A stretch of DNA of 32,000 nt. Source: Promethearchaeota archaeon (GTDB lineage: Archaea; Asgardarchaeota; Lokiarchaeia; Sigyniarchaeales; Promethearchaeaceae). The notes under the pieces were generated by a model that was given only the letters and a program-made list of their open reading frames with translations, was not told the origin of the DNA and searched no databases. A program made the translations under genes and the position numbers. Position 1 is the first letter of the stretch, and each line of letters opens with the position of its first letter. Location of the stretch: assembly GCA_016933055.1 (NCBI GenBank), contig JAFGBS010000009.1, positions 570,001-602,000 on the forward strand. The letters run 5' to 3'. Positions 7,805 to 28,539 of the stretch are shown piece after piece.

Positions 7805-7971
7805 TTATATATTGAAAAATCTTAACGGATATAGAGAAAACCTAATAATACCTATTATGGTCTACAAATTGGTTTAAACTTTGATTAAACCAGCGCATGT
7901 CTTAAAAATAAGATTAAGCTTGAAATTTAAGACACATGCCTTAGCAAAAACAACGAACATTAGGAGGAGGT
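7805..7971 (+). promoter_or_regulatory. Putative TATA box, two-hairpin leader and strong SD upstream of the B12-binding gene
   Basis: ttatatat 7805-7812; ggtttaa/ttaaacc (7871-7891); gcatgtcttaaa/tttaagac(ac)atgc (7895-7939); aggaggaggt 7962-7971. Confidence 0.4.
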
Positions 7972-7981
7972 TAAAAGTCAA

Positions 7982-9682
7982 ATGAGCAAAAATCAACCAA
8001 AAAATAACAAGATATTAGGAGCTTGCATTGGAGATTGTATCCATGTTGCCGGGTTGACGAAATTCTTTCGCATAGCTAACCAATATGGTTATGAAACTAC
8101 GTTTGTCGGTGCAGCGATGCCGATTCAAAAAATTATTACAGAAATACAAAAATCTTCCGCAAAAATTATAGCTTTATCTTACCGTTTAACTCCGCAAGTT
8201 GGAGTATCACTTTTAAAACAGTTAATTCAAGAAGTAAAGAAACACAATTTAACCAATCGGGATTACTATTTGGGTTGTTTACCTGAGTTAGAACAGCATG
8301 CAGTAAAATTTAATTTCTTTAAAAAAATTTTCACAGGTGGGGAGGCACTAGATGAATTATATTCAATATTTCAAGTTGGAATAATAAAAGATGATGTACT
8401 CAGCTATCCTACGGATCTTATATCGAGAATACGCATGAAAGCACCGTATCCGATTTTTCGTGCACATTTCGGTTTACCATCATTAGATGACACCTATAAA
8501 GGCATTCAAGAAATTGCAGAATCTAAGATGTTGGATGTGATCTCAATTGCTCCCGATCAAGCTGCACAAGAATGGTTTCACCATCCTGATATCATTCATC
8601 GAAGACCAAAAGGATCTGGTGGAGTCCCTATCAGGAAAAAAGAACATTTGGAACAAATGTATTCACAAAGTCGTACCGGAAATTACCCTTTGATGCGAAT
8701 CTATTCTGGCACCCAAGATTTAGTGAAGAATGCTGAATTATTTCAATCCTCAATACAAAATGCTTGGGCAGCGATTCCTATCTTTTGGTATTCTAAATTG
8801 GATGGAAGAGGACCATTGCCTATACAAAAAGCTATACAAGAGCATTTTCTCGCTATACAATGGCATGCGAACCATAATATTCCAGTAGAAGTGAATGATC
8901 CCCATCAATGGGGCTTACGACAAGCAACTGATCAGATGGTAGTGGCTGATGCATACCTTTCAGCTAAAATTGCAAAGGAACTGGGCGTGAGATATTATAT
9001 AGAGCAACTTATGTTCAATACTCCCGCAGGGAATACCTTTAGCATGGATTTTGCTCGTGTTCTTGCAATGATTGATATAATAATTCCATTAGTTGATGAG
9101 AATTTTGAAGTGTTTAAAGAAACCAGGACAGGTTTAGCATATTTATCAACTGATCCGACCGTTGCAAAGGGACAGCTTGCAGTATCTAGTATGATGCAAT
9201 TAGCTGTTCAACCGCATATAATGCATGTAGTATCATATTCAGAGGCCAGTCACGCAGCAAAAGCTATTGATGTAATTAAAAGTTGTAAGATGGTAAGTAA
9301 TATTATTCAAGATAGTCTCGGCAATCTTCCCGATTACACCTTGGACCAAAAAATCATCCAACGGAAAAATGAACTCATCCACCAAGCGCACATCTTAATA
9401 AATGCATTTGAGCACTTGGGAAATAAAATGGGTGTTAAAAATCCCTATCTATCTTCCGAATGCTTAAGTGAGGCTGTTCGCATTGGACTGTTCGATGCAC
9501 CTCAAGTAAAAGGATTTTCTGGAGCAAAAGGAAAAATCCATACGGAAATTGTAGACGGAAAGTGTATTACAATTGATTCGAGCGGACAAGAAATAGATGA
9601 GATTCAAAGAATGGCAGAGTTAGGGATTCTCGATGAATCGGTCAAAAAACTAGTATCATTAAAACCAGGTGTAACCAAATGA
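7982..9682 (+). CDS. Cobalamin-binding domain + probable TIM-barrel protein of unknown function
   Basis: N-terminal Rossmann B12 domain: GDCIHVAG (variant DxHxxG), IALSYRLT, FTGG. It is followed by about 430 aa with no radical-SAM CxxxCxxC motif. Confidence 0.8.
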   Translation: MSKNQPKNNKILGACIGDCIHVAGLTKFFRIANQYGYETTFVGAAMPIQKIITEIQKSSAKIIALSYRLTPQVGVSLLKQLIQEVKKHNLTNRDYYLGCLPELEQHAVKFNFFKKIFTGGEALDELYSIFQVGIIKDDVLSYPTDLISRIRMKAPYPIFRAHFGLPSLDDTYKGIQEIAESKMLDVISIAPDQAAQEWFHHPDIIHRRPKGSGGVPIRKKEHLEQMYSQSRTGNYPLMRIYSGTQDLVKNAELFQSSIQNAWAAIPIFWYSKLDGRGPLPIQKAIQEHFLAIQWHANHNIPVEVNDPHQWGLRQATDQMVVADAYLSAKIAKELGVRYYIEQLMFNTPAGNTFSMDFARVLAMIDIIIPLVDENFEVFKETRTGLAYLSTDPTVAKGQLAVSSMMQLAVQPHIMHVVSYSEASHAAKAIDVIKSCKMVSNIIQDSLGNLPDYTLDQKIIQRKNELIHQAHILINAFEHLGNKMGVKNPYLSSECLSEAVRIGLFDAPQVKGFSGAKGKIHTEIVDGKCITIDSSGQEIDEIQRMAELGILDESVKKLVSLKPGVTK

Positions 9683-10836
9683 TAGATTATAATAATGTAG
9701 CAATTATTGGTGCTGGAAATGGAGGAAGAGCAACTGCAATATATCTCAGAAACCGTGGATTTAACATAAATCTTGCATTTCGCACCTTTGAAAAGATAAA
9801 AACTATTTATTTCACTAAACAAATTCGTTCACAAGGGAAATTGAACGGTATTTTTGATTTAGATTTAATCACTCCTGAATACTCTCAATTGATGGCTGAA
9901 GATGTCGGAGTAATTATATACGTACTTCCTGCAAATGTACACGCTGATATAACTCGGAAAATTGCCCCTTTCCTTCAGAATAATCAAATTATTTTATTAA
10001 CTCCTGGTAGAACATGGGGTGCAATTGAAGTTAATAACATCATAAAAAGATTGCGACCCGAATTACGAGTATATGTTGGTGAGACACAAACACTTCCCTT
10101 CACAAGCCGATCAATAGAAGATAAAGGAGTAGATCTTATCGACATTAAAAACCAGGTTAAATATTGTTTTTACCCAGAAAAATACAACCAACGTGTTTCC
10201 AAAACAATATTCAAGCTATTCCCTCGTCTCTTGAGCGTGGATGATATAAGAATAACCAGTTTAAATAATATTGGTGCAATGGTTCATCCGGCAGGATTAA
10301 TATTAAACACAGGTACCATTAGTCGAAAACAAGATCTCTTATTCTACTCTGAAGGAATGAGTAAGGATGTTGTGAAAATCGTAGAGCAAGTCGATACAGA
10401 GCGTTGCACTATTATGAAACTCTTAGGGCTGAAACCCGTAAATTTCCTGCAATGGGCAACTGAAGTGTATAATGTCAGGGAAAAAGATTATTACTCCACA
10501 TTTCAGCACATCCGAAGCTATCAAGCTATTTCAGCACCAAAGCAAATGAATGTTAGATATATAACCGAAGATGTACCTACGGGATTAGTTCCTATCTCTT
10601 CAATTGGAAAATTTCTTGGAATACCAACTCCCGCTACGGATGCTCTTATTAACATTGCAAACATTTTAATGGATACAGATTTTCGGGTAACCGGACGGAC
10701 GACTAAAAATGTGGGAGTCCCAGTTAATCTCTTAATACCAAAGGAAGAACAAAAATATATTGTATCCAAGGTTCAAGAATTAACTCACGAAGATATAAAT
10801 ATCAATGTAACGAATGATAAATCTTCATCATCTTAA
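9679..10836 (+). CDS. NAD/NADP octopine/nopaline (opine) dehydrogenase family protein
   Basis: IIGAGNGG Rossmann motif, GETQTLPF, NNIGAMVHP, RYITEDVPTGLVP; ATGA overlap with the upstream gene. Confidence 0.9.
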   Translation: MIDYNNVAIIGAGNGGRATAIYLRNRGFNINLAFRTFEKIKTIYFTKQIRSQGKLNGIFDLDLITPEYSQLMAEDVGVIIYVLPANVHADITRKIAPFLQNNQIILLTPGRTWGAIEVNNIIKRLRPELRVYVGETQTLPFTSRSIEDKGVDLIDIKNQVKYCFYPEKYNQRVSKTIFKLFPRLLSVDDIRITSLNNIGAMVHPAGLILNTGTISRKQDLLFYSEGMSKDVVKIVEQVDTERCTIMKLLGLKPVNFLQWATEVYNVREKDYYSTFQHIRSYQAISAPKQMNVRYITEDVPTGLVPISSIGKFLGIPTPATDALINIANILMDTDFRVTGRTTKNVGVPVNLLIPKEEQKYIVSKVQELTHEDININVTNDKSSSS

Positions 10837-10921: not shown

Positions 10922-12721
10922 ATGGCACCTAAACAAAGGAAATCAAAAGCCTCCTTAAAAAAGGAGGACAAATCAATTTTCCACACAGTGAAATTGTATC
11001 TCACTGGGAAATCAGATCATCAAAAAAAAACTACAGAAATTTTTTGGGGGAAAAAATTCACATTATTGATCACACTGTTTTTTTTCTACTCTTTTGTGTT
11101 AATATCAAATTGGGAAAATGAATTTTTCAAATACATTACCCTAGAGAACCCTTATGCACTTTCGGTCTCATTAGTATTCACTTTTTTTATGCTCACCTTC
11201 TTTTTCCTCAATTCCAAGTTGAAGCGATTTTTATTTGGCCCGTATAGTTTTTTAAAACAATTACCACTCTTTTTTGGATTACTATATGGTAGCTTCTTCC
11301 TATGGAGATATTTAGTCAATATAGGGTGGAATATATTACCTACCCTCCTCGTACTTGCAATGTTTTGGTTGATTATCCAAGGTGTGCGTGTATACGATAC
11401 TAGCAGAAAATTTGCAAGTAAAGTGGAAGTAAAGACCTTGAAGCGATACTCTCCTACTGTAAATATGCTAATTACCTTAATTCCGTTCTTAATCCTAATT
11501 ATTTTGACTGTAGGTGTATGGTCTTATAGGTATGGACTAGTTTGGTTCACTTTGGATATTATTACTTTTTTAGGAGGTGATCCTAGTACTGCAGTGTTGA
11601 TGTATTCCGTGGAAATGAACGTTATATTACCGTTTCTGTATATTTCTTTGATTGTAATATTCGTTTTGTTTGCAGTAGAATTGATAATGACCAGGTTAAG
11701 GGTAGAAAATAAAAGAATGGGAACCTTTGATAATTTTGCTTATTCTTTAATCGTATTTTTTATGTTTTTGTACTTAATTTACCAAATTTCCCTATATTTA
11801 GTATTGCATTCCAAAACCCAGCTTGCCTTAGGGAGTATTGCAGGAGCAACAAGTGGAACATCGTATTTTTTCTATTTTGAATTTTTGATCTCGGTAATTT
11901 TCCTATTTCGAGGAATTCGTATTTTAGGAAAATCCATTGGAGGTAATTTTCTATTTTTCAATAAAGATTCCTTAATAATGATATTTCTCGCAACAATAAC
12001 AGCACAAACGGCCTCACGTATTCCAATATTTTCTGAAATTTCTACCCAAAATGTCGGAATATTATCTAACTTAATCAATATGGACCATTTATTAATTCCG
12101 GCATTGATTATTCTTTTTTTAGGTCTAACAATTGTGATCTATTATATTCGTCCCCAGCAAACTTCTATGTTTTTACGAACCCATAAATCATTAGTTGCAA
12201 GCGAGGAGGAGAAAGGACAAATAATCTTTGAATTTCTTAAACGGGAATTTGTACGAAGAGGAAAACCTTTTCCACTCACCGATGTAGATAATCAACTTAT
12301 TGCATTAACAGGTGCATCCAAATCTACTGTTCGAAACATCATCCAACGAGATTTAGATCCACAATATATGGAATTACAAATTTTTACTGAAGGTGCAAGA
12401 AAATTTGTCGAGTTTATTTCTATTCATGATTCCTATGAACGAAAATCTGATGCCACGGGTCGAGTAAAACACTTTATGTCCGATAGGTTATCTAAAACTC
12501 TCTCTGAGGATAAGGATGATCTGGGAATTTCAAAAGGTGCAAGTTCTGCTGTGGAAGAGCGAAAAACCTTTCTTGCAGCTTTAGATTCGAGTTATAAGAA
12601 GAAAACCAGTGAACCGCAAAGTAAAGAAGATTTACGGGATATCAAACATATTCAAGACAAAAAAGATTCAGAACTAATGTTTAAACGAGCGAAAAAACAA
12701 AATAGGAAGAAAAAAACATAA
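10922..12721 (+). CDS. Hypothetical multipass membrane protein (about 10 TM) with a soluble C-terminal domain
   Basis: Many hydrophobic 20-aa segments in residues about 45-410, then a soluble, partly wHTH-like domain and a basic tail. Confidence 0.75.
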   Translation: MAPKQRKSKASLKKEDKSIFHTVKLYLTGKSDHQKKTTEIFWGKKFTLLITLFFFYSFVLISNWENEFFKYITLENPYALSVSLVFTFFMLTFFFLNSKLKRFLFGPYSFLKQLPLFFGLLYGSFFLWRYLVNIGWNILPTLLVLAMFWLIIQGVRVYDTSRKFASKVEVKTLKRYSPTVNMLITLIPFLILIILTVGVWSYRYGLVWFTLDIITFLGGDPSTAVLMYSVEMNVILPFLYISLIVIFVLFAVELIMTRLRVENKRMGTFDNFAYSLIVFFMFLYLIYQISLYLVLHSKTQLALGSIAGATSGTSYFFYFEFLISVIFLFRGIRILGKSIGGNFLFFNKDSLIMIFLATITAQTASRIPIFSEISTQNVGILSNLINMDHLLIPALIILFLGLTIVIYYIRPQQTSMFLRTHKSLVASEEEKGQIIFEFLKREFVRRGKPFPLTDVDNQLIALTGASKSTVRNIIQRDLDPQYMELQIFTEGARKFVEFISIHDSYERKSDATGRVKHFMSDRLSKTLSEDKDDLGISKGASSAVEERKTFLAALDSSYKKKTSEPQSKEDLRDIKHIQDKKDSELMFKRAKKQNRKKKT

Positions 12722-12722
12722 T

Positions 12723-14015
12723 TTAAACTTTTTTCGGTAATACCTTTGGTCCATCCGGTAAAACCAAAATGGATATCTCATCCATTTTTTTCTGTAAATC
12801 CTTCGAAGCAAATTTAATTGCCTTTTCTACAGTTTCTGCATGCTTTAATCCTATATTTCCTATTTGTGATTCTTTCATAGATGATACGATATATACTGTA
12901 TGATGCATAAGAATTCTCGCCATAACTTGGATTTGCCAGATGTCTGGAATATTTAATTTCCCACTCAAAGCATTTTTATAAATTTCTTCGGGAGTGTATC
13001 CACTATTATTTAATTTATTAAAGTACTCTTGCCCTACTCCGTCTCGACACTCGTTTACTGCAATAATAACTCCTTGTTTTTTGCAAGCAAGTTCTCCGAT
13101 AGCCATACTTTTTACAGCTTGATATAAATTAAGATCTAAAGGGAATCCACCATTGCCGCAAATAACTATATCATACAATTTTGAAATTTCACGAAAACAT
13201 TCTCTTTCTTGGATTTGCACCAGGTGATTATGGACGGCAAAAATATTTCCTGCAGCTATATGAGTTATTTGATGATTTTGGTTTATAATCGCATTGATGC
13301 AAAAATCAGGTTTGAGTAATCTAGTTGCTTCAACTAATTCTTCATGCAACGGATTGTGTTCTAAAATTCCAAATCTAGCATACCGGGAATCTATGTTTTT
13401 CTCAGAATGATTACGTAATATTGTACTTTTTCCCGCAATGCCCGGAACTATTGCTTTTCTTCCCCCACTATAGCCTGAAAAAAAATGTGGTTCTACATAC
13501 CCAGACGCAATTCGAAATGCGGCTTGCACATAATGGGTATTAAGATAAACACCCGTCCCCCTAGAAGTTTCTCCGATATATTCTAGTTCCATTTCATTGT
13601 TCGCATCATGAAATAAAATATCAAATCGATTAATATGCTCCTCTCCGAGCATTCTTTTTAGTTCTAATAAAGAAGATTTGCGATGCAACCCTGCAGCCAC
13701 TAAAATCTTAATCCTTTCATCTCCAATATTATGGTTTTGAAATATTTTTGATAAGGCATCTAAAAAGAACTTACTAGAGATGGGACGGGTGTGATCATCA
13801 ACAAGAATGATGATATAATCCTCGGGATTTCTCATTTTTTTTCTTAGCAACTGGTCAAATGGTTGAGAGTTCATCGGATTGTTTAATTTAGTATAGATTT
13901 CTCCTACTGGGTCCTTCAAAACAGACATTTTATTCGCTTTCATTACTCTAGAATGGGACTCATCGGGAATTTCAAATCTTACTCCTGTCGAACCATATTG
14001 AAATTCAATTTCCAT
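12723..14015 (-). CDS. larA: LarA-family nickel-pincer-dependent 2-hydroxyacid racemase/epimerase (DUF2088)
   Basis: DDHTRP, AAGLHR, VEPHFFSGYSGGRKAIVPGIAG, PLDLNLYQAVK motifs. Confidence 0.9.
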   Translation of the reverse strand: MEIEFQYGSTGVRFEIPDESHSRVMKANKMSVLKDPVGEIYTKLNNPMNSQPFDQLLRKKMRNPEDYIIILVDDHTRPISSKFFLDALSKIFQNHNIGDERIKILVAAGLHRKSSLLELKRMLGEEHINRFDILFHDANNEMELEYIGETSRGTGVYLNTHYVQAAFRIASGYVEPHFFSGYSGGRKAIVPGIAGKSTILRNHSEKNIDSRYARFGILEHNPLHEELVEATRLLKPDFCINAIINQNHQITHIAAGNIFAVHNHLVQIQERECFREISKLYDIVICGNGGFPLDLNLYQAVKSMAIGELACKKQGVIIAVNECRDGVGQEYFNKLNNSGYTPEEIYKNALSGKLNIPDIWQIQVMARILMHHTVYIVSSMKESQIGNIGLKHAETVEKAIKFASKDLQKKMDEISILVLPDGPKVLPKKV

Positions 14016-14460
14016 CTCTAAGCCTTCTCCTACTTAATGTTTTTTCCAACTTCTCTCGAAAATCTGATTCAAATAGCTGACTTTCTTGCATAGCTTTCTT
14101 TTTAAATTTGGTTTTTATCATATAACCTTTATATTCAATTAAATCCTGTAACTCTTTAAGAAAAGGGTGGTTTTTTTGATATAAAGCGGAGGGAAATCGA
14201 ACGAAATACACCAGATATTGTTGCAATTCTCGATAATATAAAACAGATGGCTTTAATTTCATCTGTTCATCTCGTGATTGTTCATGATATACATCTAAAA
14301 GCTTTCTTAATTGCTTACTAAATGAACCTACTAAATAGCAATATGATTCCTCAAAACGATCAGTTTCTTTCGTTCCTTTTTGGGTGAACAGATCTAGAAA
14401 ATTAATTGACAAATTCTCAAATTCTTTCATTATATCTTCTTTTCTGTCGGATTTCGTCAT
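14005..14460 (-). CDS. Hypothetical helical protein
   Basis: 151-aa ORF overlapping the larA start by 11 bp, so likely co-transcribed; no recognised motif. Confidence 0.6.
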   Translation of the reverse strand: MTKSDRKEDIMKEFENLSINFLDLFTQKGTKETDRFEESYCYLVGSFSKQLRKLLDVYHEQSRDEQMKLKPSVLYYRELQQYLVYFVRFPSALYQKNHPFLKELQDLIEYKGYMIKTKFKKKAMQESQLFESDFREKLEKTLSRRRLRDGN

Positions 14461-14537
14461 TCCTTTATTTAGTAGGCTCTTATAGCGTTAAAAATTTACG
14501 TATAATAAACATAAATTTGTTATAATGGTGAGTTCAT

Positions 14538-14963
14538 TTGGATTATGAAGAGATAAAAAATCAATTACAGGAAATTGAGCGATTAAGAGAACAGACTCAA
14601 AAAAGAATGCATGAGCTAGAAACAAAAAAAAAAAGACAAATTGCAGAAATTGAAAACAGATTTGTGCGTCTAGAAGAAGAATTAATAAATCCAGTGGAAA
14701 CTTTTGAAATTCAAGTTTATAATGGATTAATACAAAGTTTTGAAGATTTAGTACTTAATGAAATTGATAAGAAGAGAATGAATTGTGAATATATTCTATC
14801 CGAAGACGTAAAGACTTATCGAAATCAAATGATTTCTGTGGAAATATTCCCAAAAGAACTGATAGCACGGTTGGATCAAGTAATATCAGGAAAAAAAACA
14901 ATAGAAGATATAGCGTATAAATTAGATGAGATAAAAAATAAATTCACAAAACCATTGAGTTAG
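14538..14963 (+). CDS. Hypothetical coiled-coil protein
   Basis: 141 aa, TTG start, E/K/R-rich heptad pattern in the N-terminal half; convergent 4-bp overlap with nrdJ. Confidence 0.6.
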   Translation: MDYEEIKNQLQEIERLREQTQKRMHELETKKKRQIAEIENRFVRLEEELINPVETFEIQVYNGLIQSFEDLVLNEIDKKRMNCEYILSEDVKTYRNQMISVEIFPKELIARLDQVISGKKTIEDIAYKLDEIKNKFTKPLS

Positions 14964-17371
14964 TTCTTTGGGTTTTTATTTTCATGTTTATTGCCAGCAT
15001 CTTGGTCGGGATCAAAACATAAATCTGAAAATCTTGTATCTTTTTCCACTTTTATAATTCCACCATTTTCATTATTAGAAATCGCTTCTGTGATTTGGGA
15101 GATCTCTTTTTTCAATTCACAAGTATCCGTTGTACATCCCTCTTCTCCAATTGCTTTGACAGAGACATTTTTTAAATTTAAATGTTTTAATTTTGCAGTC
15201 ATTTCCTCATAATATTCTCTTGTAATCTCTTCATAGGGTGCTTGTTCATAGCCATGATCATTTATCGGTAGCATGGAGACACTTTTTAGCTTAGATTCAT
15301 AGCATTCTAAAGCGTATTTAATATCCTTAACTTCTTCCTTTCTGAATGTAATCGTCACAGAAACTTGATTATCACTCCAATATTTTTGATAAGCTGCTGC
15401 ATTCTCAAACTGCTCCCACATCGAGACTTCTACTTTTGATCGGCGGAAATGTTTTTCATGCACGGGAAATTCTGCTACCATCGCATTTTTGGAATACACG
15501 TCTTCCTCAATATTATATCCAGCTTCTTTTAATATCGGAATTAAATCTGAATTACTTGATAGGCGTATACGACGGATATAATATTCTGAGTGAGGATAAT
15601 GGATCCCTGGGCTTACACCAGGCAATAAACTAACAGTTCCACTCGGCTTAACCGAAGTGATTTTTATTGACTTAGGGATACACAACCAGTCGGAATATTT
15701 CTCATCTAATTTTTTAAGGTAGTTATACCCCCTATCACACCAATCTAACATTGTTTTCCTACCATGTTTCACAAACGCATCAATTATACCAGATTGGGAT
15801 GTTCCAATCCGTCGATTCTTTCCCATTACAGCATTTGTGAATCCCCAATGCGTATTTTCAAGAGTAACCGATTTAGCATATAAATATGCGTATTTTAAAG
15901 TATCTTGATACTCATCATACGAATCATGGCGTGACGGGAATGTTTCCACTAAACAACACAACTCAAAACTTTCGAGGGTTTGCTCTCCACATGGATTCAC
16001 TCCCTTGGCCTTTTTATCCTTATAATCGGGTTCTCCGTTTATGCGGGAATATTTTTGTGCATTTTCCAGCCATAAAACTCCTGGTTCTCCGTTCTTTGCG
16101 ATACTATCAACGATAGGGGAGTATTCGATCCCTACGGTTGCAATAACGGAATTGTTACTAGCCCATCGGTGGTGTTTTGACAATTCCATATCCTGTTTCA
16201 TTGTGATGAACTCGTGGTCATCCATACTTCCTAATGCAATTTCTGCTGATCGCCTTACATTTCCCGCTACTACGCACTTACCGATTAAATTAAAGATATC
16301 GACTATATCTGTGGATGATAGGGCTTGTCCTACTTTTGCGGACAACATCTCTTGGATATCTTCTAGCATTTCTTTTAAAGGTCCAGGACCAGATGCAACA
16401 CCCCCAAATCCCTTAATAGGTGCTCCAGCGGGTCGAATCAAAGAGTAATCAAAGTGAGAGATTTCCTTTCCCTCAAAAAATCCATCAAGCACTTTACCAA
16501 GAGCTTTTACCCATCCCTCCCGCGAATCGGGGATTTTGTAAACTTTATCTGATATAGCAGGTTCTTGTATTACAACTTTACCCGCCCCTTTTGTATCGAA
16601 TCCAACTCCAACACCGAGCATAAGAGCATCCATGCACCATTGGAATGCCATAGGACCTTTAATGTCGATGTCCTCTGTAGAGCAAAATCCACAATTATTT
16701 AACGCCATTGAGCCATGCTTGTCAATAAATGGGGTTCCCATAACCCATAAGCCTCGTCCTGGGGCACTAAATTTAAAATTCCACATTTTTTCATACATAA
16801 TTTCAGCAGATTTACGAGCTTTTTCTTCGTTCCAAGGTAATCCCAATTTAATGCAATGCTCCTTTTGAAGGGAATAACAACCCTCAACAACCCTTCGGAT
16901 GGTTTCAAAAAATTCCTCCGTTCGGTTTTCTTCATCTATAGGGCGTGCATAGGTTCGCTTGTATGTTATATACCCTAAAGGCCCCCAATCGGGCTGTTTG
17001 TCACGAAATTGATCAATGAAGCTTTCTTGTAGCACAAACTTTGTTCGTTTCTTCTTCTCAATCCTTTCATAAATCTCCTTATACTTATCCAATCCGCGAG
17101 AAGAAAGTTCTTCACAGATAAAATCCTTTACTGCATAGGTAGATATGGATTTATATTGCAAACTAAGTAATCCTACTATCTTTCGAACAACAGCTTCTAT
17201 GATTTCTGATGATATTTGATCATCCAACCCAACATCTACTATTAGACTTTTTCGTATTCGATCTAATTCAAATGGCTCTTTTTCCCCATCGCTATTAATG
17301 ATATAGTTAGGAAGGATCGAACCTAGTTCAAATTCATTCATGAGAAGCTCATCATTGTGGTCATTGATCAC
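14960..17371 (-). CDS. nrdJ: Class II (adenosylcobalamin-dependent) ribonucleotide reductase, monomeric type, with an N-terminal ATP-cone-like domain
   Basis: TYKRTYAR, PGRGLW, ALNNCGF, IPDSREGWV, VVAGNVRRSA, NPCGEQTLE..CCLVE, TSVKPSGTVSLL, C-terminal EGCTTDTC. The start may be ATG 17341 instead of GTG 17371. Confidence 0.93.
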   Translation of the reverse strand: MINDHNDELLMNEFELGSILPNYIINSDGEKEPFELDRIRKSLIVDVGLDDQISSEIIEAVVRKIVGLLSLQYKSISTYAVKDFICEELSSRGLDKYKEIYERIEKKKRTKFVLQESFIDQFRDKQPDWGPLGYITYKRTYARPIDEENRTEEFFETIRRVVEGCYSLQKEHCIKLGLPWNEEKARKSAEIMYEKMWNFKFSAPGRGLWVMGTPFIDKHGSMALNNCGFCSTEDIDIKGPMAFQWCMDALMLGVGVGFDTKGAGKVVIQEPAISDKVYKIPDSREGWVKALGKVLDGFFEGKEISHFDYSLIRPAGAPIKGFGGVASGPGPLKEMLEDIQEMLSAKVGQALSSTDIVDIFNLIGKCVVAGNVRRSAEIALGSMDDHEFITMKQDMELSKHHRWASNNSVIATVGIEYSPIVDSIAKNGEPGVLWLENAQKYSRINGEPDYKDKKAKGVNPCGEQTLESFELCCLVETFPSRHDSYDEYQDTLKYAYLYAKSVTLENTHWGFTNAVMGKNRRIGTSQSGIIDAFVKHGRKTMLDWCDRGYNYLKKLDEKYSDWLCIPKSIKITSVKPSGTVSLLPGVSPGIHYPHSEYYIRRIRLSSNSDLIPILKEAGYNIEEDVYSKNAMVAEFPVHEKHFRRSKVEVSMWEQFENAAAYQKYWSDNQVSVTITFRKEEVKDIKYALECYESKLKSVSMLPINDHGYEQAPYEEITREYYEEMTAKLKHLNLKNVSVKAIGEEGCTTDTCELKKEISQITEAISNNENGGIIKVEKDTRFSDLCFDPDQDAGNKHENKNPKN

Positions 17372-23487: not shown

Positions 23488-24105
23488 ATGCATAATTCTC
23501 ACGGATACAATATTTTAACTGTCGGTGTTGGAGGAACTGGGGTCATTAGTGCTACTCAGATACTTGCTTGGGCTGCTTTGGAGGATAATTATCAAGTCAG
23601 AACCGCTGAGACGCATGGTATGGCCCAAAGGGGAGGAAGTGTCGTGGGCTATCTAAGATTTGGATCTAATGTTAAAGGACCTCTAATCTATAAAGCGGAT
23701 GTTATATTATCTTTTGAGTTGAGTGAAATTCTTAGATATAGTGAATATATAAATGAAAAAACGAGTCTTTTTGTCAGCAAGGATATACTCATTCCTCCCT
23801 CTGTATATACTTATAATATTCCCTATCCAAGTCAAGATGTTATTCTTAATCATTTACGCAAAATCACCCATCATGTGCATTTGATAGACGCAGGTAAAAT
23901 GGCAAAAAATGCTGGAAACCCTAAAACCTCTAATGTGGTACTAATTGGAACCATATATGGAGCGGGAAAATTACCTATTCAAGAATCCTCTCTAAAAAAT
24001 GCCATCATTAAATTTGTTCCTGACAGGGCAAAAAAAATTAATGAAATCGCTTTTCAAATAGGTATCCAATATGGTAGAAAAATCAAGGAGGGTTTTTATG
24101 AATAA
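23488..24105 (+). CDS. iorB: Indolepyruvate:ferredoxin oxidoreductase beta subunit
   Basis: GVGGTGVI, AETHGMAQRGGSV, SFELSE, NVVLIG. Confidence 0.92.
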   Translation: MHNSHGYNILTVGVGGTGVISATQILAWAALEDNYQVRTAETHGMAQRGGSVVGYLRFGSNVKGPLIYKADVILSFELSEILRYSEYINEKTSLFVSKDILIPPSVYTYNIPYPSQDVILNHLRKITHHVHLIDAGKMAKNAGNPKTSNVVLIGTIYGAGKLPIQESSLKNAIIKFVPDRAKKINEIAFQIGIQYGRKIKEGFYE

Positions 24106-25999
24106 ACCAGATTATGCAGAAGATTCACCTGGTAAAGAACTTATTTTGATGGGAAATGAAGCAATTGCTCGTGGAATATTGGAAGGTGGAGCGATTATAG
24201 CGGTAGGATATCCCGGTACACCTTCTTCAGAAATATTAGCCACACTCGCCACCATGCAAAAATTTCATTCCCATTTAATGCTCGAATGGTCTATTAATGA
24301 AAAAGTAGCAATGGAAGTTGCTTATGGGGGAGCTCTTTCAAATTTGAGGTCTGTAGCGGTGATGAAACATGTGGGATTAAATGTTGCATCTGATGCCTTC
24401 ATGACCGCATGTTATACCGGCGTTCGAGGCGGGTTAGTTGTGATATCTGCAGACGATCCCAATTGTTATAGCAGTCAAAATGAGCAAGATAATCGCTATT
24501 TTGGACCTCATGCTTTGATTCCGGTAATTGAACCCAGCTCTCCTCAAGAAGCAAAAAATATGATCAAAGATGCGTTCACATTCTCTGAGAAACACAAGAC
24601 TATCGTACTATTTCGAACTACCACTCGGTTGAACCATGGTCGAGCGAACGTGATACTCGGAGATATACAAAAAACTGAAACTAAACCCGATTTCGATCGT
24701 AATCCCAGTAAATATGTATGTGTTCCGTCAAATTCACGAAGAATGCGAAAGGAACTTCTCCAACGCTTGGAAAAAATCAGTGAGGAATCCGATTCGTATC
24801 CTTTTACCTCCCTAACACTATCAGAAAAACGCATAAACGGGAAGAAGTTTGGTTTTATTTCTGCAGGTATTCCTTATGCTCATTTAATGGACGCCTTAGA
24901 ATATTTCAAAATAGCTGAAAACGTTTCAATCTTAAAGATAGGTATGATCTATCCTCCTCCTAAGAAATTAATACAAAAACTACTTGAAAATTGTGATGAA
25001 ATCCTAATTGTTGAAGAATTAGAACCCGTAATTGAAAATTTCGTAAAACAAATTGCCTACGATTCGAAAATTACTACTATCATACATGGAAAAGATGTGT
25101 TTCCTATAGCAGGTGAATTTCCTGTGAAATTGTACTTAGAAAAAACTGCTGCGTTTATTGGTAAGGAATTTGCAACGCAAGAACTTCTCGAATCTGACAT
25201 TGAATTACCTCCCCGCCTCCCCTTACTTTGTCCGGGATGTAGCCATCGTTCTACTTATTGGGCTCTGAAACAAGCGGAAAAGAAATTAAAAATCAACGCA
25301 TTTAAATCCGGAGATATTGGGTGCTACACATTAGGAGTGTACAAACCCTTAGAGAGCTTGAATGCACAAATTTGTATGGGTTCTTCCATTGGGGTCGCAA
25401 ACGCACTATCCAAAGTCCAAACTGATAAAGAGCCAGTTGTAGCGATTATTGGAGATAGTACTTTCTTTCATTCTGGTGTCTCGGGTTTGATCAATGCCGT
25501 CTATAATCAGAACAATTTCCTTGTGATTATTCTTGATAATCAATCGACCAGTATGACAGGTATGCAACCCAATCCAGGTACAGGTGTTAAAATAACCGAA
25601 GAATCTGGAACTAAAGTTATTCTTAGAGATTTAGTAAAGGGATGTGGTATTCCAGAAGAAAATATCTGGATTGAGGATTCTAACAACATTCCGAAAATGG
25701 TAGAAAAACTCGAGGAAGCACTACAAGCAAAAGGGATCCGTGTGTTCATTTCAAGACATGTTTGCTCGCTACTAGAAATTCGAGAATGGAAAGAACAAAA
25801 AGTAGTTATGCCGGAAGTTAAGGTGGACCCCGAAAAATGTATAGGATGTATGACGTGCATTCGTAAATTTGGATGTCCTGCATTAGTCGAGATTGAATAT
25901 AATGGGAAGAAAAAATCCTCAATTGATCCCTCAATCTGCCGTAGATGTCAAGTTTGTATAGATGTTTGCCCATATGGAGCAATTTATTGCGAGGAATGA
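24098..25999 (+). CDS. iorA: Indolepyruvate:ferredoxin oxidoreductase alpha subunit
   Basis: MGNEAIARG, GYPGTPSSE, NEKVAME, MKHVGLNVA, SQNEQD, CPGCSHR, GDIGCY, TPP motif IGDSTFFHSG..N, C-terminal 2x[4Fe-4S]. Start moved from 24071 to ATG 24098 because aaggagg lies just upstream and it overlaps the iorB stop. Confidence 0.95.
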   Translation: MNKPDYAEDSPGKELILMGNEAIARGILEGGAIIAVGYPGTPSSEILATLATMQKFHSHLMLEWSINEKVAMEVAYGGALSNLRSVAVMKHVGLNVASDAFMTACYTGVRGGLVVISADDPNCYSSQNEQDNRYFGPHALIPVIEPSSPQEAKNMIKDAFTFSEKHKTIVLFRTTTRLNHGRANVILGDIQKTETKPDFDRNPSKYVCVPSNSRRMRKELLQRLEKISEESDSYPFTSLTLSEKRINGKKFGFISAGIPYAHLMDALEYFKIAENVSILKIGMIYPPPKKLIQKLLENCDEILIVEELEPVIENFVKQIAYDSKITTIIHGKDVFPIAGEFPVKLYLEKTAAFIGKEFATQELLESDIELPPRLPLLCPGCSHRSTYWALKQAEKKLKINAFKSGDIGCYTLGVYKPLESLNAQICMGSSIGVANALSKVQTDKEPVVAIIGDSTFFHSGVSGLINAVYNQNNFLVIILDNQSTSMTGMQPNPGTGVKITEESGTKVILRDLVKGCGIPEENIWIEDSNNIPKMVEKLEEALQAKGIRVFISRHVCSLLEIREWKEQKVVMPEVKVDPEKCIGCMTCIRKFGCPALVEIEYNGKKKSSIDPSICRRCQVCIDVCPYGAIYCEE

Positions 26000-26002
26000 A
26001 TT

Positions 26003-27388
26003 ATGGAATATTTCTTTAATCCGAAAAAAATAGTAGTTGTCGGCGCAACTGCAAATCCCAGAAAATTTGGGAATGTTGTAACTTCTAATATTCTTAGTAA
26101 CAAAGAACGGGATTATATCGTATATCTTGTTTCATTAAAAAAACAAAAAATTAATGGTTTAGGAACTTATGAATCTATTTTAGATATTCCCGATTCTATT
26201 GATTTAGCTATAATCCTAGTACCTGCTCCTGCAGTGGAAGAAATAATAGACAGTTGTATCAAGAAAGCAGTCAAGGGTATTATAATTGTCTCGGGAGGAT
26301 TTGGAGAAATAAATGAAACAGGCAAAATTTTAGAAAGGCGAATCGCAAATAAATGTAAACAAGCAGGAATTCGAGTTATCGGACCCAATTGTGTTGGCAT
26401 CCAAAACTTGGATATAGGGTTGAATGCATCTTTTATTTTAACACCACCTAAAGGAAAAGTTAGTTTTATTACTCAATCAGGAAGTTTTGGCGCAGCGGTG
26501 CTTTATGCAATGAATAATGAGCACTTAGGTTGCTCGAAGTTCGCTAATCTAGGCAATATGATCGATGTTTCTTACAGCGAGGTTTTAGACTATTTAAACA
26601 AAGATCCCAACACTGATGTAATTTGTATGTACTTGGAATCGGTTGCAGATGGTCGAGATTTTTTTTCCTCTATTAAACAAGTAATCCCAAATAAACCCAT
26701 ACTTGTATTGAAAGGAGGAAGAACCGTAACGGGTATGAGTGCTGCTTCTAGTCATACAGGATCGCTTTCTACGAATTATCAGTTACTAAAAAGTGCAGTG
26801 GATCAAGCAGGAGGTCATATGATCGAATACATTGCCGATTATACCACTGCTTTGAAAGCATTTGCGTATTTTCCTATCCCGCAAGGAAATAGAATTGGTG
26901 TAATGACCAATAGTGGTGGAAGTTCCGTGCTTTTTAGTGACCAAGCGGAACGATTCGGTTTGAACATAACAGAATTCTCTGATGAATTGATTGAAAGAAT
27001 ACGACCTCATGTAATCCCGTTGGTAAAAATGGTAAATCCACTTGACATGATTGCCGGTGCGAGAGAGGAACAGTATTATCACGTTGCAAAAGCCATGCTG
27101 GAAAGTAAAGATATCGACATAGTTGTTGGCTGTTGTGTAATAACACCCTTTTTAGAAATTCAATGGGACGAACATTATCGAGGAATGATTCGGGCGTGGA
27201 ATGAAACAGGTAGAAAAAAACCCATGATCCCGTTATTAGTATTTGCAGATTCTTTCCCTCAGATTCATGCATTATCTGAAAAGGAAAAAATAACAGCATT
27301 TTATACCCCCTATCAAGCAGCTTATGCCTGTAAAGTTCTAATCGATAGGATGAACTACTTAAAAAAAATACACGAGGATAAAAAATGA
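26003..27388 (+). CDS. acdA: ADP-forming acetate/acyl-CoA ligase alpha subunit (CoA-binding + ligase domains)
   Basis: VVGAT, GGFGE, IGPNCVG, TQSGSFG, LGNMIDV, YLES, LKGGRT..AASSHTG (phospho-His), TNSGG, NPLDM. Confidence 0.9.
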   Translation: MEYFFNPKKIVVVGATANPRKFGNVVTSNILSNKERDYIVYLVSLKKQKINGLGTYESILDIPDSIDLAIILVPAPAVEEIIDSCIKKAVKGIIIVSGGFGEINETGKILERRIANKCKQAGIRVIGPNCVGIQNLDIGLNASFILTPPKGKVSFITQSGSFGAAVLYAMNNEHLGCSKFANLGNMIDVSYSEVLDYLNKDPNTDVICMYLESVADGRDFFSSIKQVIPNKPILVLKGGRTVTGMSAASSHTGSLSTNYQLLKSAVDQAGGHMIEYIADYTTALKAFAYFPIPQGNRIGVMTNSGGSSVLFSDQAERFGLNITEFSDELIERIRPHVIPLVKMVNPLDMIAGAREEQYYHVAKAMLESKDIDIVVGCCVITPFLEIQWDEHYRGMIRAWNETGRKKPMIPLLVFADSFPQIHALSEKEKITAFYTPYQAAYACKVLIDRMNYLKKIHEDKK

Positions 27389-28539
27389 AACCAGTCTCAG
27401 ATGCAGTACTTCATTCAAAAAAAAGCAGTATCCGAAAATTATTTGAACTATTTTTGAAAAGCACCGATGCGATTTCATTGGGTATCGGACAACCGGATTT
27501 TCAAACGCCTGAAAATATTATGAATGGGATTCGAAAAGCACTGGATAATCAGAAAACAATGTATCCACCAGCATTAGGTATAGATGAACTACGGGAAGCG
27601 GTTGGAGAAAAGTTCCGAAAAGAAAATAGTATGAGATGGGTTCAAAAAGAGAATGTTATGGTCACTGTTGGAGGATCGCAGGCAATAGCATTGACCTTTG
27701 CTGCTTTAACCAACCCTGGAGATGAAATCCTAATAAATTCCCCTAATTTCTTATCGTATTATTATATACCTGCATATTATCATACTAATTTGGTAGAAGT
27801 CGCAAGAAATCCTGATTATTCCATTAATTTTGAGCAACTAGAGAGAAAGATCACTCCAAAAACAAAATTATTGATTATAAATTCTCCAAACAATCCTACT
27901 GGCTACGTTCTTACTAAGAATGAGGTAGAAAAGGTAGTAGATTTGGTAATAAAACATGATCTCTATTTGTTGAGCGATGAAGTATACGAAAAATATCTTT
28001 ATAATGGTAGAACTCATATAAGTCCTGCTAGCTTGGATGGTGTGGAAGATCGAACAATAACCATCAACTCTATTTCAAAAACCTTCTCTGCAACTGGGTT
28101 ACGTGTTGGATATCTTGCTGCACCAGCAGATATTATCCCATTAATGGAAAAATATGCCCAATACACCGCGGCAGGAACTGCCCACCCAATCCAGTATGGA
28201 GCAGTTGCTGGGATAAAAAACGGAAATCCAAAAATGGCAGAAATCATTCGAAAGTATGATGAACGCCGAAAATATTCATTTAAACGATTAGAAGAACTGA
28301 ATTTTGATTGCCCTATTCCACATGGAGCATTTTACATTATGCCCTCGGTGAAGAATTATGCTAAAACGGGAGATCAATTTTCTGAGGATTTATTTAATAA
28401 ACAGAAAGTAGCCGTGGTAGGTGGTTCCTCATTTGGATCATTTTCCAGTGATAAAGTTCGTATTTCCTATGCAACTACTAAGGAAAATTTAGAAAAAGCA
28501 TTTGAACGTATAGAAAAATATCTTGAAGACTTAAAATAA
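27385..28539 (+). CDS. PLP-dependent class I/II aminotransferase (aspartate/aromatic type)
   Basis: GIGQPDF, NSPNNPTG, SDEVYE, SKTFSATGLRVGY (PLP lysine), GAFY; ATGA overlap with acdA. Confidence 0.93.
   Translation: MKPVSDAVLHSKKSSIRKLFELFLKSTDAISLGIGQPDFQTPENIMNGIRKALDNQKTMYPPALGIDELREAVGEKFRKENSMRWVQKENVMVTVGGSQAIALTFAALTNPGDEILINSPNFLSYYYIPAYYHTNLVEVARNPDYSINFEQLERKITPKTKLLIINSPNNPTGYVLTKNEVEKVVDLVIKHDLYLLSDEVYEKYLYNGRTHISPASLDGVEDRTITINSISKTFSATGLRVGYLAAPADIIPLMEKYAQYTAAGTAHPIQYGAVAGIKNGNPKMAEIIRKYDERRKYSFKRLEELNFDCPIPHGAFYIMPSVKNYAKTGDQFSEDLFNKQKVAVVGGSSFGSFSSDKVRISYATTKENLEKAFERIEKYLEDLK

What the first reader, a model, noticed from the sequence alone, without database searches (positions are those of the whole stretch)
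7982..10836. Uncharacterised cobalamin-binding/TIM-barrel enzyme translationally coupled to an opine dehydrogenase
Seen: a 566-aa protein with an N-terminal base-off/His-on B12 domain (DCIHVAG, SYRL, GG) and a large C-terminal domain without radical-SAM cysteines, overlapping (ATGA) an octopine/nopaline-dehydrogenase-family gene. Known: AdoCbl mutases (glutamate, methylmalonyl-CoA, lysine/ornithine aminomutases) pair such a domain with a TIM barrel, usually barrel-first or as separate subunits. Opine dehydrogenases reductively condense amino acids with 2-oxoacids. From memory, a similar gene pair occurs unassigned in anaerobic Firmicutes (unverified). Inference: this may be an undescribed B12-dependent amino-acid pathway, for example rearrangement of an amino acid or its N-carboxyethyl/imine adduct. 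That would fit an amino-acid-fermenting anaerobe, and the window also encodes IOR/ACD and a B12-dependent RNR.
Basis: partly seen in the sequence, partly recalled or inferred. Interest (0 to 1): 0.75.

Follow-up and report, generated by a model that had tools for sequence, protein, structure and literature searches.

The report
Orphan B12 mutase, opine dehydrogenase pair
Two overlapping genes in an Asgard archaeon encode a vitamin-B12 radical enzyme built like glutamate mutase and an opine dehydrogenase tuned to acidic amino acids; the pair has been in print since 2009 as a widespread duo of unknown function, so it is real and unsolved but not new.

Summary
Window 7982-9682 (566 aa) and 9679-10836 (385 aa) overlap by ATGA. 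The genome is an Asgard (Promethearchaeota) archaeon, not a Firmicute.

The partner is a true opine dehydrogenase. It carries the Arg111/Gly199 pair that Telek et al. 2024 showed directs such enzymes to L-Asp or L-Glu plus pyruvate. All 72 mutase-linked dehydrogenases have it; six unlinked Asgard paralogues do not.

The pair is adjacent in 72 of 80 loci, in both gene orders, and co-occurs almost perfectly in 121 Asgard genomes. Ten of 29 bacterial loci carry a c-di-AMP riboswitch.

The pair is already in print as an unexplained duo (Zhang et al. 2009; Mavromatis et al. 2009). This scan has also found it many times on other DNA. Substrate and direction remain unknown. My committed guess is that opine formation is followed by an adenosylcobalamin-dependent rearrangement.

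The parts
7892..7941 (+). Imperfect palindrome or hairpin (CATGTCTTAAA ... TTTAAGACACATG) in the 5' leader. It may be an operator or a leader hairpin; whether it belongs to the module is uncertain.
   Evidence: Both arms are conserved with the closest relative L007, in an intergenic region that has otherwise diverged. The RNA fold gives -12.1 kcal/mol. It is not found upstream in the other clade-A loci.
7962..7970 (+). Shine-Dalgarno-like AGGAGGAGG, 11 nt before the ATG at 7982
   Evidence: Read from the sequence
7982..9682 (+). Gene for the 566-aa single-chain B12-domain plus GlmE-like barrel protein (P0001)
   Evidence: ORF. 2804 homologues. AlphaFold model with pLDDT 87.5. Fold matches.
8006..8380 (+). 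N-terminal Rossmann-type cobalamin-binding domain (residues about 9-133), with no helical cap domain
8036..8053 (+). C19-I-H21-V-A-G24: the family's C-x-H-x-x-G variant of the lower-ligand His motif
   Evidence: C19 aligns to the Asp of DxHxxG. C19 is present in 200 of 201 sequences, H21 in 201 of 201 and G24 in 203. The motif is kept in the MutL-fused subfamily at 31% identity.
8402..9619 (+). TIM barrel plus C-terminal helices of the AdoCbl-mutase type (residues 141-546). Invariant R160, H162, D192, Q196, R239, Y241, R276, E303, N305, H308, R313, R382, H415 and E421 lie in or just after the predicted barrel strands or in the adjoining loops.
9679..9682 (+). ATGA overlap of the mutase stop and the dehydrogenase start (translational coupling)
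   Evidence: A 4-nt overlap is the commonest arrangement among the Asgard loci.
9679..10836 (+). Gene for the 385-aa opine dehydrogenase (P0002), CENDH/ArODH-like
   Evidence: PF02317, 133.7 bits. 1bg6, E 1e-56, aligned 1-347. GxGxxG at residues 11-16. H203, R293 and D298 are conserved.
10009..10011 (+). Codon of Arg111, equivalent to ArODH Ala111: the first determinant of acidic-amino-acid specificity
   Evidence: Alignment. Mutagenesis in Telek et al. 2024. Arg in 72 of 72 mutase-adjacent dehydrogenases and missing in 6 unlinked paralogues.
10273..10275 (+). Codon of Gly199, equivalent to ArODH Asn198: the second, spatially coupled determinant
   Evidence: Gly in 71 of 71 linked enzymes; Asn in the 6 unlinked paralogues.
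10922..12721 (+). 599-aa multi-pass membrane protein with a charged C-terminal tail and no family hit. It is co-oriented, 85 nt downstream. Whether it belongs to the module is doubtful.
   Evidence: It is conserved only in the closest relative L007 and is not recurrent in the 80 loci.

Best explanation
The two genes form a self-contained bicistronic enzyme module.

Well supported, about 0.75:
- P0001 is a cobamide-binding, adenosylcobalamin-type radical isomerase. The cobalamin domain and a glutamate-mutase-E-like barrel are fused in one chain.
- The cofactor is probably bound base-off/His-on through H21, in a family-specific C-x-H-x-x-G motif.
- P0002 is an NADPH-type opine dehydrogenase for an acidic L-amino acid.

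Committed guess, inferred:
- The dehydrogenase first condenses L-aspartate (or L-glutamate) with pyruvate to give N-(1-D-carboxyethyl)-L-Asp/Glu.
- The mutase then abstracts a hydrogen with the 5'-deoxyadenosyl radical and carries out a 1,2-rearrangement of this tricarboxylate. Five invariant arginines in the barrel would bind the carboxylates.
- The rearranged acidic opine is an end product or a building block. Some relatives would pass it to a Ddl-like ATP-grasp or AsnB-like amide ligase. In bacteria it would be made when c-di-AMP is low, under osmotic or potassium stress.

The order of the two steps, the substrate and the direction are not shown.
For: Fold:

Cofactor handling:
- H21 and G24 are invariant.
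- The Glu that hhalign places on GlmE E330 (an adenosyl-ribose contact, from memory of the Marsh and Kratky work) is E421, present in 206 of 206 sequences.
- Five 1213-1226-aa relatives fuse this family to a MutL/GlmL domain (PF13941). The dehydrogenase still overlaps upstream in two of three loci.
- True glutamate mutase operons fetched here show MutL-GlmE-methylaspartase.
- The window's genome can make and use AdoCbl: a CobA-type adenosyltransferase at 113 bits and a class II RNR in the window.

Active enzyme: 14 polar residues lying in or just after the predicted barrel strands or in the adjoining loops are invariant in 206 sequences.

Dehydrogenase:
- H203, R293 and D298 are kept.
- R111 and G199 match the two positions whose exchange switched ArODH and mODH-582 between L-Phe and L-Asp. 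The mODHs use pyruvate and mostly NADPH.
- The signature is present in 72 of 72 and 71 of 71 linked enzymes and absent from 6 unlinked paralogues.
- F34-R35-T36 replaces ArODH D34/D36.

Coupling:
- Adjacent in 72 of 80 loci, in both orders.
- 41 of 121 Asgard genomes have both genes and about 76 have neither.

Anabolic hints:
- A Ddl-like ligase in 12 loci, in archaea and bacteria, at different positions.
- An AsnB-like gene in 10 loci, and an asparaginase next to the operon in Tissierellia.
- A c-di-AMP riboswitch directly upstream in 10 of 29 bacterial loci.
Against: - No biochemical data exist for any member.
- The Asp of DxHxxG is replaced by Cys in the whole family, so cobalamin binding is unproven. 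Pfam's B12 hit is below threshold.
- GlmE's substrate residues are not kept, so nothing fixes the substrate.
- The mODHs turn over L-Asp slowly (kcat about 1 per s, KM 0.5-25 mM). L-Asp plus pyruvate may therefore not be the native pair.
- The order of the steps is free: mutase first is equally compatible.
- A breakdown route fits the data about as well. An earlier in-scan check priced the 'branched acidic opine product' reading at only 6/100.
- Migration of a saturated N-substituent or a free carboxylate has no precedent in this barrel family.
- This window has no ligase, no riboswitch and no MutL in the genome.
Confidence: 0.35

Rival explanations
1. Same two chemistries in the opposite order. 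The AdoCbl mutase first isomerises a free acidic amino acid, which is not glutamate in the GlmE sense. The dehydrogenase then condenses the rearranged, aspartate-like product with pyruvate.
For: The mODHs prefer Asp-like substrates but are slow on L-Asp itself, as expected if the native amine is an Asp analogue. The barrel is closest to GlmE. In Asgard the gene order is mutase then dehydrogenase.
Against: GlmE residues R66, R100, R149, E171 and Y181 align to H162, Q196, Y241, A263 and L273. Bacteria use the opposite gene order. Five invariant arginines suit more than two carboxylates.
Confidence: 0.2
2. A catabolic module. The pair degrades an opine-like or N-alkylated acidic amino acid, or ferments an acidic amino acid. 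This would parallel aminomutase followed by dehydrogenase in ornithine and lysine fermentation.
Against: No thiolase, CoA-transferase or lyase recurs next to the pair. The unit is usually flanked by genes on the other strand. The recurrent extras are ATP-dependent amide ligases. c-di-AMP riboswitches usually gate ion and osmolyte functions (general knowledge). No lysine is invariant, so there is no PLP internal aldimine.
Confidence: 0.2
3. A corrinoid methyltransferase, or 'methionine synthase' as many database records name it.
For: NCBI-derived names. The best sequence hits of the N-terminal domain are methyltransferase corrinoid proteins and MetH.
Confidence: 0.04
4. The N-terminal domain no longer binds cobalamin because Asp is replaced by Cys. 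The protein would be a B12-independent enzyme or scaffold that uses the Cys-His pair for something else, such as a metal or a thiol.
For: A canonical Asp is seen in only 1 of 201 sequences. The Pfam hit is sub-threshold. C19, C435 and C528 are conserved.
Against: His, Gly and the Ser-x-x-Leu region stay invariant in the right register. The E330-equivalent Glu is invariant. There are MutL fusions. An earlier scan note reports a cobalamin riboswitch and a B12 importer next to a homologous pair (not checked here).
Confidence: 0.06

Closest known systems
'Novel B12-dependent protein family' next to octopine/nopaline dehydrogenase (Zhang, Rodionov, Gelfand, Gladyshev 2009, PMC2667541); Halothermothrix orenii Hore_09740/Hore_09750 operon (Mavromatis et al. 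2009, PMC2626281)
   Same: It is the same family and the same pairing. The N-terminal domain is a distant B12-binding domain, the PF02317 dehydrogenase is adjacent, and D-Ala-D-Ala ligase and asparagine synthase genes lie nearby in some genomes.
   Different: Those papers saw 11 bacteria or a few thermophile genera and gave no function. They did not report the kinship to glutamate mutase, the Cys-for-Asp change, the dehydrogenase's acidic-substrate signature, or the archaeal (Asgard) spread. Here the pair is in an Asgard archaeon, in the clade that also holds the cultured P. syntrophicum MK-D1 and L. ossiferum.
Glutamate (methylaspartate) mutase GlmS/GlmE with GlmL/MutL, EC 5.4.99.1 (PDB 1cb7, 6h9e)
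   Different: It is a single chain with the B12 domain first. Sequence identity is 12%. The motif is CxHxxG. The five glutamate-binding residues are replaced. There is no methylaspartase neighbour; the partner is an opine dehydrogenase. No true GlmE was found in 61 Asgard genomes sampled.
Lysine 5,6-aminomutase (1xrs, 8t0v) and ornithine 4,5-aminomutase (3kow)
   Different: No invariant lysine exists to hold PLP. The subunit layout differs. The partner dehydrogenase belongs to another family.
Metagenomic opine dehydrogenases mODH-45/47/48/49/55/582 (Telek et al. 2024, PMC10787698) and Arthrobacter CENDH/ArODH (1bg6)
   Same: P0002 aligns over its full length with 1bg6, E 1e-56. It has the catalytic His, Asp and Arg. 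It has Arg at position 111 and Gly at 198/199, as in all the mODHs. It shares motif strings such as LNPGRTxGALEF and DNIGxxFHP.
   Different: The mODHs were recovered as lone genes from short reads, so their genomic partners are unknown. P0002's own substrates are untested.
c-di-AMP (ydaO/kimA-type) riboswitch regulon, Rfam RF00379
   Same: Ten of 29 bacterial loci carry a full-length RF00379 aptamer (84-107 bits) on the operon strand, from 3 nt to about 130 nt before its first gene in the seven loci where the dehydrogenase comes first.
   Different: There is no riboswitch in this archaeal window. Only a short palindrome, shared with one relative, lies upstream.

Membership tests
Orphan B12-domain protein / opine dehydrogenase pair (Zhang et al. 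2009) | [quoted passage not shown] | tested here: met
   PF02310 at residues 10-88; profile hits to corrinoid proteins; 45-72% identity to family members.
Orphan B12-domain protein / opine dehydrogenase pair (Zhang et al. 2009) | Always adjacent to a PF02317 dehydrogenase | tested here: met
   ATGA overlap in the window; adjacent in 72 of 80 loci; co-occurrence in Asgard genomes.
AdoCbl-dependent mutases (GlmE/LAM/OAM/MCM type) | Substrate TIM barrel of the mutase type | tested here: met
AdoCbl-dependent mutases (GlmE/LAM/OAM/MCM type) | Rossmann B12 domain with a DxHxxG lower-ligand motif | tested here: not met
   His and Gly are present and invariant, but Asp is replaced by Cys in 200 of 201 sequences. 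The motif is CxHxxG.
AdoCbl-dependent mutases (GlmE/LAM/OAM/MCM type) | Residues that hold the 5'-deoxyadenosyl ribose (GlmE K326 and E330; roles recalled from memory) | tested here: inconclusive
   hhalign aligns E330 to E421 (206 of 206) but K326 to V417. Alignment probability is 82%.
AdoCbl-dependent mutases (GlmE/LAM/OAM/MCM type) | Cobamide binding and Co-C homolysis on substrate binding | not testable with these tools
   Needs reconstitution with UV-vis and EPR.
AdoCbl-dependent mutases (GlmE/LAM/OAM/MCM type) | Association with a reactivase or chaperone (MutL/GlmL, MeaB) | tested here: inconclusive
   Five relatives are fused to PF13941. No PF13941 match was found in the window's own genome, which is 91% complete.
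Glutamate mutase sensu stricto (EC 5.4.99.1) | Glutamate-binding residues R66, R100, R149, E171 and Y181 of GlmE. R66, R100, R149 and Y181 are invariant in the four GlmE-type sequences fetched; E171 is kept in three and is Ile in the most divergent (40% identity). | tested here: not met
   They align to H162, Q196, Y241, A263 and L273.
Glutamate mutase sensu stricto (EC 5.4.99.1) | Separate S and E subunits, in an operon with methylaspartate ammonia-lyase | tested here: not met
   Single chain. No methylaspartase appears among the recurrent neighbours. Three of the four GlmE-type operons fetched here show MutL-GlmE-lyase.
PLP-dependent aminomutases (LAM/OAM) | Lysine in the Rossmann domain that forms the PLP aldimine | tested here: not met
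   No invariant lysine in residues 1-135. The best-conserved lysines are K332 (193 of 206) and K462 (196 of 206), both in the barrel.
Corrinoid methyltransferases / MetH | Helical cap (B12-binding_2) before the Rossmann domain, and a methyltransferase barrel | tested here: not met
Opine dehydrogenases (PF02317) | GxGxxG NAD(P)-binding fold plus the catalytic His, Asp and Arg | tested here: met
   G11-x-G13-x-x-G16. H203 aligns to CENDH H202, and R293/D298 lie in RYxxED. 133.7 bits against a cut-off of 30.
Acidic-amino-acid opine dehydrogenases (mODH class, Telek et al. 2024) | Arg at ArODH position 111 together with Gly at ArODH position 198 | tested here: met
   R111 and G199 in P0002. Present in 72 of 72 and 71 of 71 mutase-linked enzymes and absent in 6 unlinked paralogues.
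Acidic-amino-acid opine dehydrogenases (mODH class, Telek et al. 2024) | Activity with L-Asp or L-Glu plus pyruvate and NADPH | not testable with these tools
   Needs an enzyme assay.
c-di-AMP riboswitch-controlled operons | RF00379 aptamer upstream of the operon | tested here: not met
   None in the window. Present in 10 of 29 bacterial relatives.

The most novel reading that the evidence does not exclude
The module is a PLP-independent aminomutase, an 'aza' version of glutamate mutase. The opine dehydrogenase ties pyruvate to the nitrogen of L-Asp or L-Glu. The AdoCbl enzyme then abstracts a hydrogen from the methyl group of the carboxyethyl arm and moves the nitrogen (or the carboxylate) by one carbon. 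This turns an N-(1-carboxyethyl) amino acid into an N-(2-carboxyethyl), beta-alanine-type amino acid. Opine formation would take the place of the PLP aldimine as the handle for radical amino migration. The product would be a new class of acidic solute or building block.
Probability: 0.1. Interest if true: 0.85.

Novelty: new member of a known kind. Interest (0 to 1): 0.5.

Why it matters
Few families of adenosylcobalamin-dependent isomerase are known, and each has taught new radical chemistry. This family numbers thousands of sequences, spans many anaerobic phyla and is found in about a third of the Asgard genomes sampled. It has been an acknowledged blank since 2009.

It carries an unprecedented Cys in the His-ligand motif. 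It is also locked to an opine dehydrogenase that now has an experimentally grounded substrate prediction: an acidic L-amino acid plus pyruvate. That makes the question directly testable with two purified proteins and a handful of substrates.

If solved, it would:
- name a new B12 reaction;
- probably identify an unknown metabolite tied to c-di-AMP signalling (salt and potassium balance) in bacteria;
- correct the 'methionine synthase' labels on many of the family's named database records, including that of the cultured Asgard archaeon Prometheoarchaeum syntrophicum MK-D1.

Tried and rejected
- Complex prediction of the mutase with the dehydrogenase: no verdict (score 0.00). It is not evidence either way.
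- Sequencing runs: no RNA holder is listed. The only holders are DNA, a sediment metagenome that is the likely source and a hot-spring metagenome with a third of the words.
- Single-sequence and profile searches of PDB sequences found only the B12 domain, never the barrel. The barrel link needed structure and profile-profile comparison.
- PF06368 (GlmE) in the own genome and in 61 Asgard genomes: no true glutamate mutase. The only hits were weak ones to this family itself.
- PF13941 (MutL) and PF01923 (PduO-type adenosyltransferase) in the own genome: no match.
- Rfam on the window: nothing.
- A search for a third universal gene: none. The best extra family is in 18 of 80 loci (2-hydroxyacyl-CoA dehydratase, Asgard only, mostly on the opposite strand). 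It was judged to be lineage synteny.
- Paper searches found no functional study. The terms tried were opine dehydrogenase with cobalamin, glutamate mutase or adenosylcobalamin; c-di-AMP riboswitch with octopine; ydaO with mutase or opine; and octopine with Asgard terms.
- The mODH sequences of Telek et al. were compared only by motif and by the two determinant positions, because long sequences may not be typed into tools.
- 'Methionine synthase' was considered and rejected; see the rival explanations.
Full report
OBSERVATION

The two ORFs are exactly as given: 7982-9682 (566 aa, P0001) and 9679-10836 (385 aa, P0002), both on the + strand. The stop of the first and the start of the second share ATGA at 9679-9682. 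An AGGAGGAGG run lies 11 nt before the first ATG.

Best hits and composition (about 35% G+C) place the window in an Asgard archaeon (Promethearchaeota), not a Firmicute. The genome held is 3.76 Mb and 91% complete.

THE 566-aa PROTEIN: FOLD AND MOTIFS

Pfam sees only a sub-threshold B12-binding domain at residues 10-88 (24.6 bits against a cut-off of 32.1). NCBIfam sees nothing useful.

A 20-sequence alignment (A1) gave a confident AlphaFold model with pLDDT 87.5. It shows a Rossmann domain (residues about 9-133), a disordered linker, then an eight-stranded barrel with C-terminal helices.

Profile alignments put C19 on the Asp of DxHxxG. In 206 family sequences C19 is present in 200 of 201, H21 in 201 of 201 and G24 in 203, while D18 varies. 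The family motif is therefore C-x-H-x-x-G. It is kept even in a subfamily at 31% identity.

THE 566-aa PROTEIN: KINSHIP TO AdoCbl MUTASES AND CHANGED POCKET

I fetched four GlmE-type genes from Clostridia. Three lie in MutL-GlmE-methylaspartase operons. The fourth (40% identity, no methylaspartase beside it) may be another mutase. I compared their profile with A1 (probability 82%, E 1e-5, 353 columns).
- GlmE's substrate residues R66, R100, R149, E171 and Y181 fall on H162, Q196, Y241, A263 and L273. This is not a glutamate mutase in the strict sense.
- GlmE E330 falls on E421. From memory of published work, E330 holds the ribose of the adenosyl group. E421 is invariant in 206 of 206 sequences.
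- GlmE K326 is not kept.

Fourteen polar residues lying in or just after the predicted barrel strands or in the adjoining loops are invariant in all 206 sequences. They are R160, H162, D192, Q196, R239, Y241, R276, E303, N305, H308, R313, R382, H415 and E421. This is what an active, narrowly specific enzyme looks like. Five of the fourteen are arginines.

No lysine is invariant, which argues against a PLP aldimine of the LAM/OAM type.

A search for longer relatives found five proteins of 1213-1226 aa. In each, this family is followed by a MutL/GlmL domain (PF13941), the accessory protein of glutamate mutase operons. In two of the three loci read, the opine dehydrogenase overlaps directly upstream.

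The window's genome has a CobA-type adenosyltransferase and the window itself has a class II ribonucleotide reductase. Adenosylcobalamin is therefore available. The genome has no MutL and no PduO-type transferase.

THE PARTNER

P0002 is a bona fide opine dehydrogenase:
- PF02317 at 133.7 bits;
- a full-length alignment to Arthrobacter CENDH/ArODH (1bg6, E 1e-56);
- the GxGxxG motif, H203 (equivalent to CENDH H202) and the RYxxED motif.

A paper search led to Telek et al. 2024 (PMC10787698). Six metagenomic ArODH-like enzymes prefer L-Asp, then L-Glu and cysteate, with pyruvate and mostly NADPH. Swapping two positions, ArODH A111R and N198G or the reverse in mODH-582, switches the preference between L-Phe and L-Asp.

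In the 1bg6 alignment P0002 has R111 and G199 at exactly these positions. It has F34-R35-T36 where ArODH has D34 and D36.

Across my loci every mutase-adjacent dehydrogenase has the Arg (72 of 72) and the Gly (71 of 71). Six opine-dehydrogenase paralogues in Asgard genomes that are not next to a mutase lack the Arg and have Asn. The mODH sequences printed in the paper's supplement share the long motifs of this clade.

The partner is thus predicted to work on an acidic L-amino acid and pyruvate. The mODHs' low kcat (about 1 per s) leaves room for a different native amine.

HOW TIGHT THE PAIR IS

Of 80 loci fetched from species-representative genomes, 72 have the dehydrogenase directly adjacent. 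Most of the rest are cut by contig ends.

Asgard loci run mutase then dehydrogenase, usually with a 4-nt overlap. Bacillota and others run dehydrogenase then mutase.

In 121 sampled Asgard genomes:
- 41 have both genes;
- 2 have only a mutase, at a contig end or as a partial gene;
- 2 have only a dehydrogenase hit, one a fragment and one belonging to the unlinked subfamily;
- about 76 have neither.

No third gene is universal. The recurrent extras are listed below:
- a Ddl-like ATP-grasp ligase: 12 loci, in archaea and bacteria, at different positions;
- an asparagine-synthase-B-like gene: 10 loci, never together with the ATP-grasp;
- an ornithine-racemase-like gene: 6 loci;
- MFS and MscS-like membrane proteins;
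- an asparaginase, in Tissierellia.

In the clade of this window the pair is typically flanked by genes on the other strand, so it is a self-contained bicistron.

REGULATION

A full-length RF00379 aptamer (84-107 bits) lies on the operon strand just ahead of the operon in 10 of 29 bacterial loci. In the seven loci where the dehydrogenase is the first gene, the aptamer ends from 3 nt to about 130 nt before it. In two loci a Ddl-like gene comes first.

The window has no Rfam hit. A short palindrome at 7892-7941 is shared only with the nearest relative.

PHYLOGENY

A quick maximum-likelihood tree was rooted on the MutL-fused forms. Asgard sequences fall into two well-supported clades.
- The window lies in the smaller one (11 rows, support 100). 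This clade includes P. syntrophicum MK-D1, L. ossiferum and a Sigynarchaeum.
- That clade is the weakly supported sister (80) of a bacterial clade in which a few other archaea are nested.
- The larger Asgard clade has 38 rows.

No direction of transfer is claimed.

WHAT IS KNOWN

Two earlier scan notes named papers, and I read both.
- Zhang et al. [quoted passage not shown] - Mavromatis et al. 2009 (PMC2626281) describe the Halothermothrix orenii operon Hore_09740/09750 as of unknown role.

No later functional study was found in the library.

This scan has met the same pair many times on other DNA. Those reports include the glutamate-mutase kinship, the Cys motif, the riboswitch and the Telek link. 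A later in-scan check priced the specific 'makes a branched acidic opine' reading at 6/100 and judged a breakdown route equally fit.

MECHANISM

Shown or strongly indicated:
- a mutase-type barrel fused to a cobalamin-type domain that keeps the His;
- an intact, highly constrained active site;
- a genuine opine dehydrogenase carrying the acidic-substrate determinants;
- obligatory pairing of the two genes.

Inferred:
- adenosylcobalamin radical chemistry, from the fold, the E330-equivalent Glu and the MutL fusions;
- consecutive action of the two enzymes on one polycarboxylate.

My committed guess, at about one in three, is that opine formation from L-Asp or L-Glu and pyruvate comes first and a 1,2-rearrangement by the mutase follows. 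The product would serve as a solute or a building block. The opposite order and a catabolic role each keep about one in five.

The most novel reading not excluded is a PLP-independent amino migration within the carboxyethyl arm.

VERDICT

The feature is real, well conserved and functionally unsolved. It is already in print as an orphan pair and has been reported repeatedly by this scan. The window adds an Asgard member from the clade that includes cultured strains. It does not add a new kind of system.

Noticed in passing
window 7892-7941: Imperfect palindrome (CATGTCTTAAA...TTTAAGACACATG) in the leader of the operon. Both arms are conserved with relative L007, although the rest of the spacer has diverged. 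It is not seen upstream in other Asgard loci.
   Followed up: partly
window 10922-12721 (+): A 599-aa protein with about ten predicted membrane helices and a long Lys/Glu-rich tail, with no Pfam or NCBIfam hit. It lies 85 nt downstream and is co-oriented. It is conserved at the same place only in L007.
   Followed up: partly
window 12723-14015 (-): LarA-like nickel-pincer racemase. It scores below the curated cut-offs for lactate racemase (390 against 460 bits) and malate racemase, and converges on the operon. An earlier scan note saw a LarA-like gene beside the same pair in another genome, but it does not recur in the 80 loci.
   Followed up: partly
L088:7001-10642, L089, L090:3731-7411: Proteins of 1213-1226 aa that fuse this mutase family (31% identity, CxHxxG kept) to a C-terminal MutL/GlmL domain. 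In L088 and L089 the opine dehydrogenase overlaps upstream.
   Followed up: yes
L057:10489-10795 (-): Three c-di-GMP-I riboswitch aptamers in tandem (63-78 bits) in a Bacillota MAG, a few kb from the pair and on the other strand.
   Followed up: no
G109:C23:3154-5957 and 13895-16680: One Asgard genome carries two complete copies of the mutase-dehydrogenase pair about 8 kb apart on one contig.
   Followed up: no
L028:13160-14677, L004:3443-4942: In Sigynarchaeum and one Promethearchaeota MAG the linked-type dehydrogenase is about 500 aa, roughly 120 aa longer than usual. It is separated from the mutase by one to a few genes; in L028 an AsnB-like gene follows the mutase directly.
   Followed up: no
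family alignment: One of 201 family sequences has Asp instead of Cys at position 19, that is, a canonical DxHxxG. It would be a natural control for the role of the Cys.
   Followed up: no
window 14960-17371 (-), 23488-28539 (+): A class II (B12) ribonucleotide reductase. There is also a block of indolepyruvate-type oxidoreductase subunits, an ACD-type CoA ligase and an aminotransferase.
   Followed up: partly
Asgard loci L017, L020, L030, L034, L070: A Ddl-like ligase and an ornithine-racemase-like gene (NF040742, E 2e-108) lie directly upstream of the pair, on the same strand, in archaea that are not known to make peptidoglycan.
   Followed up: partly
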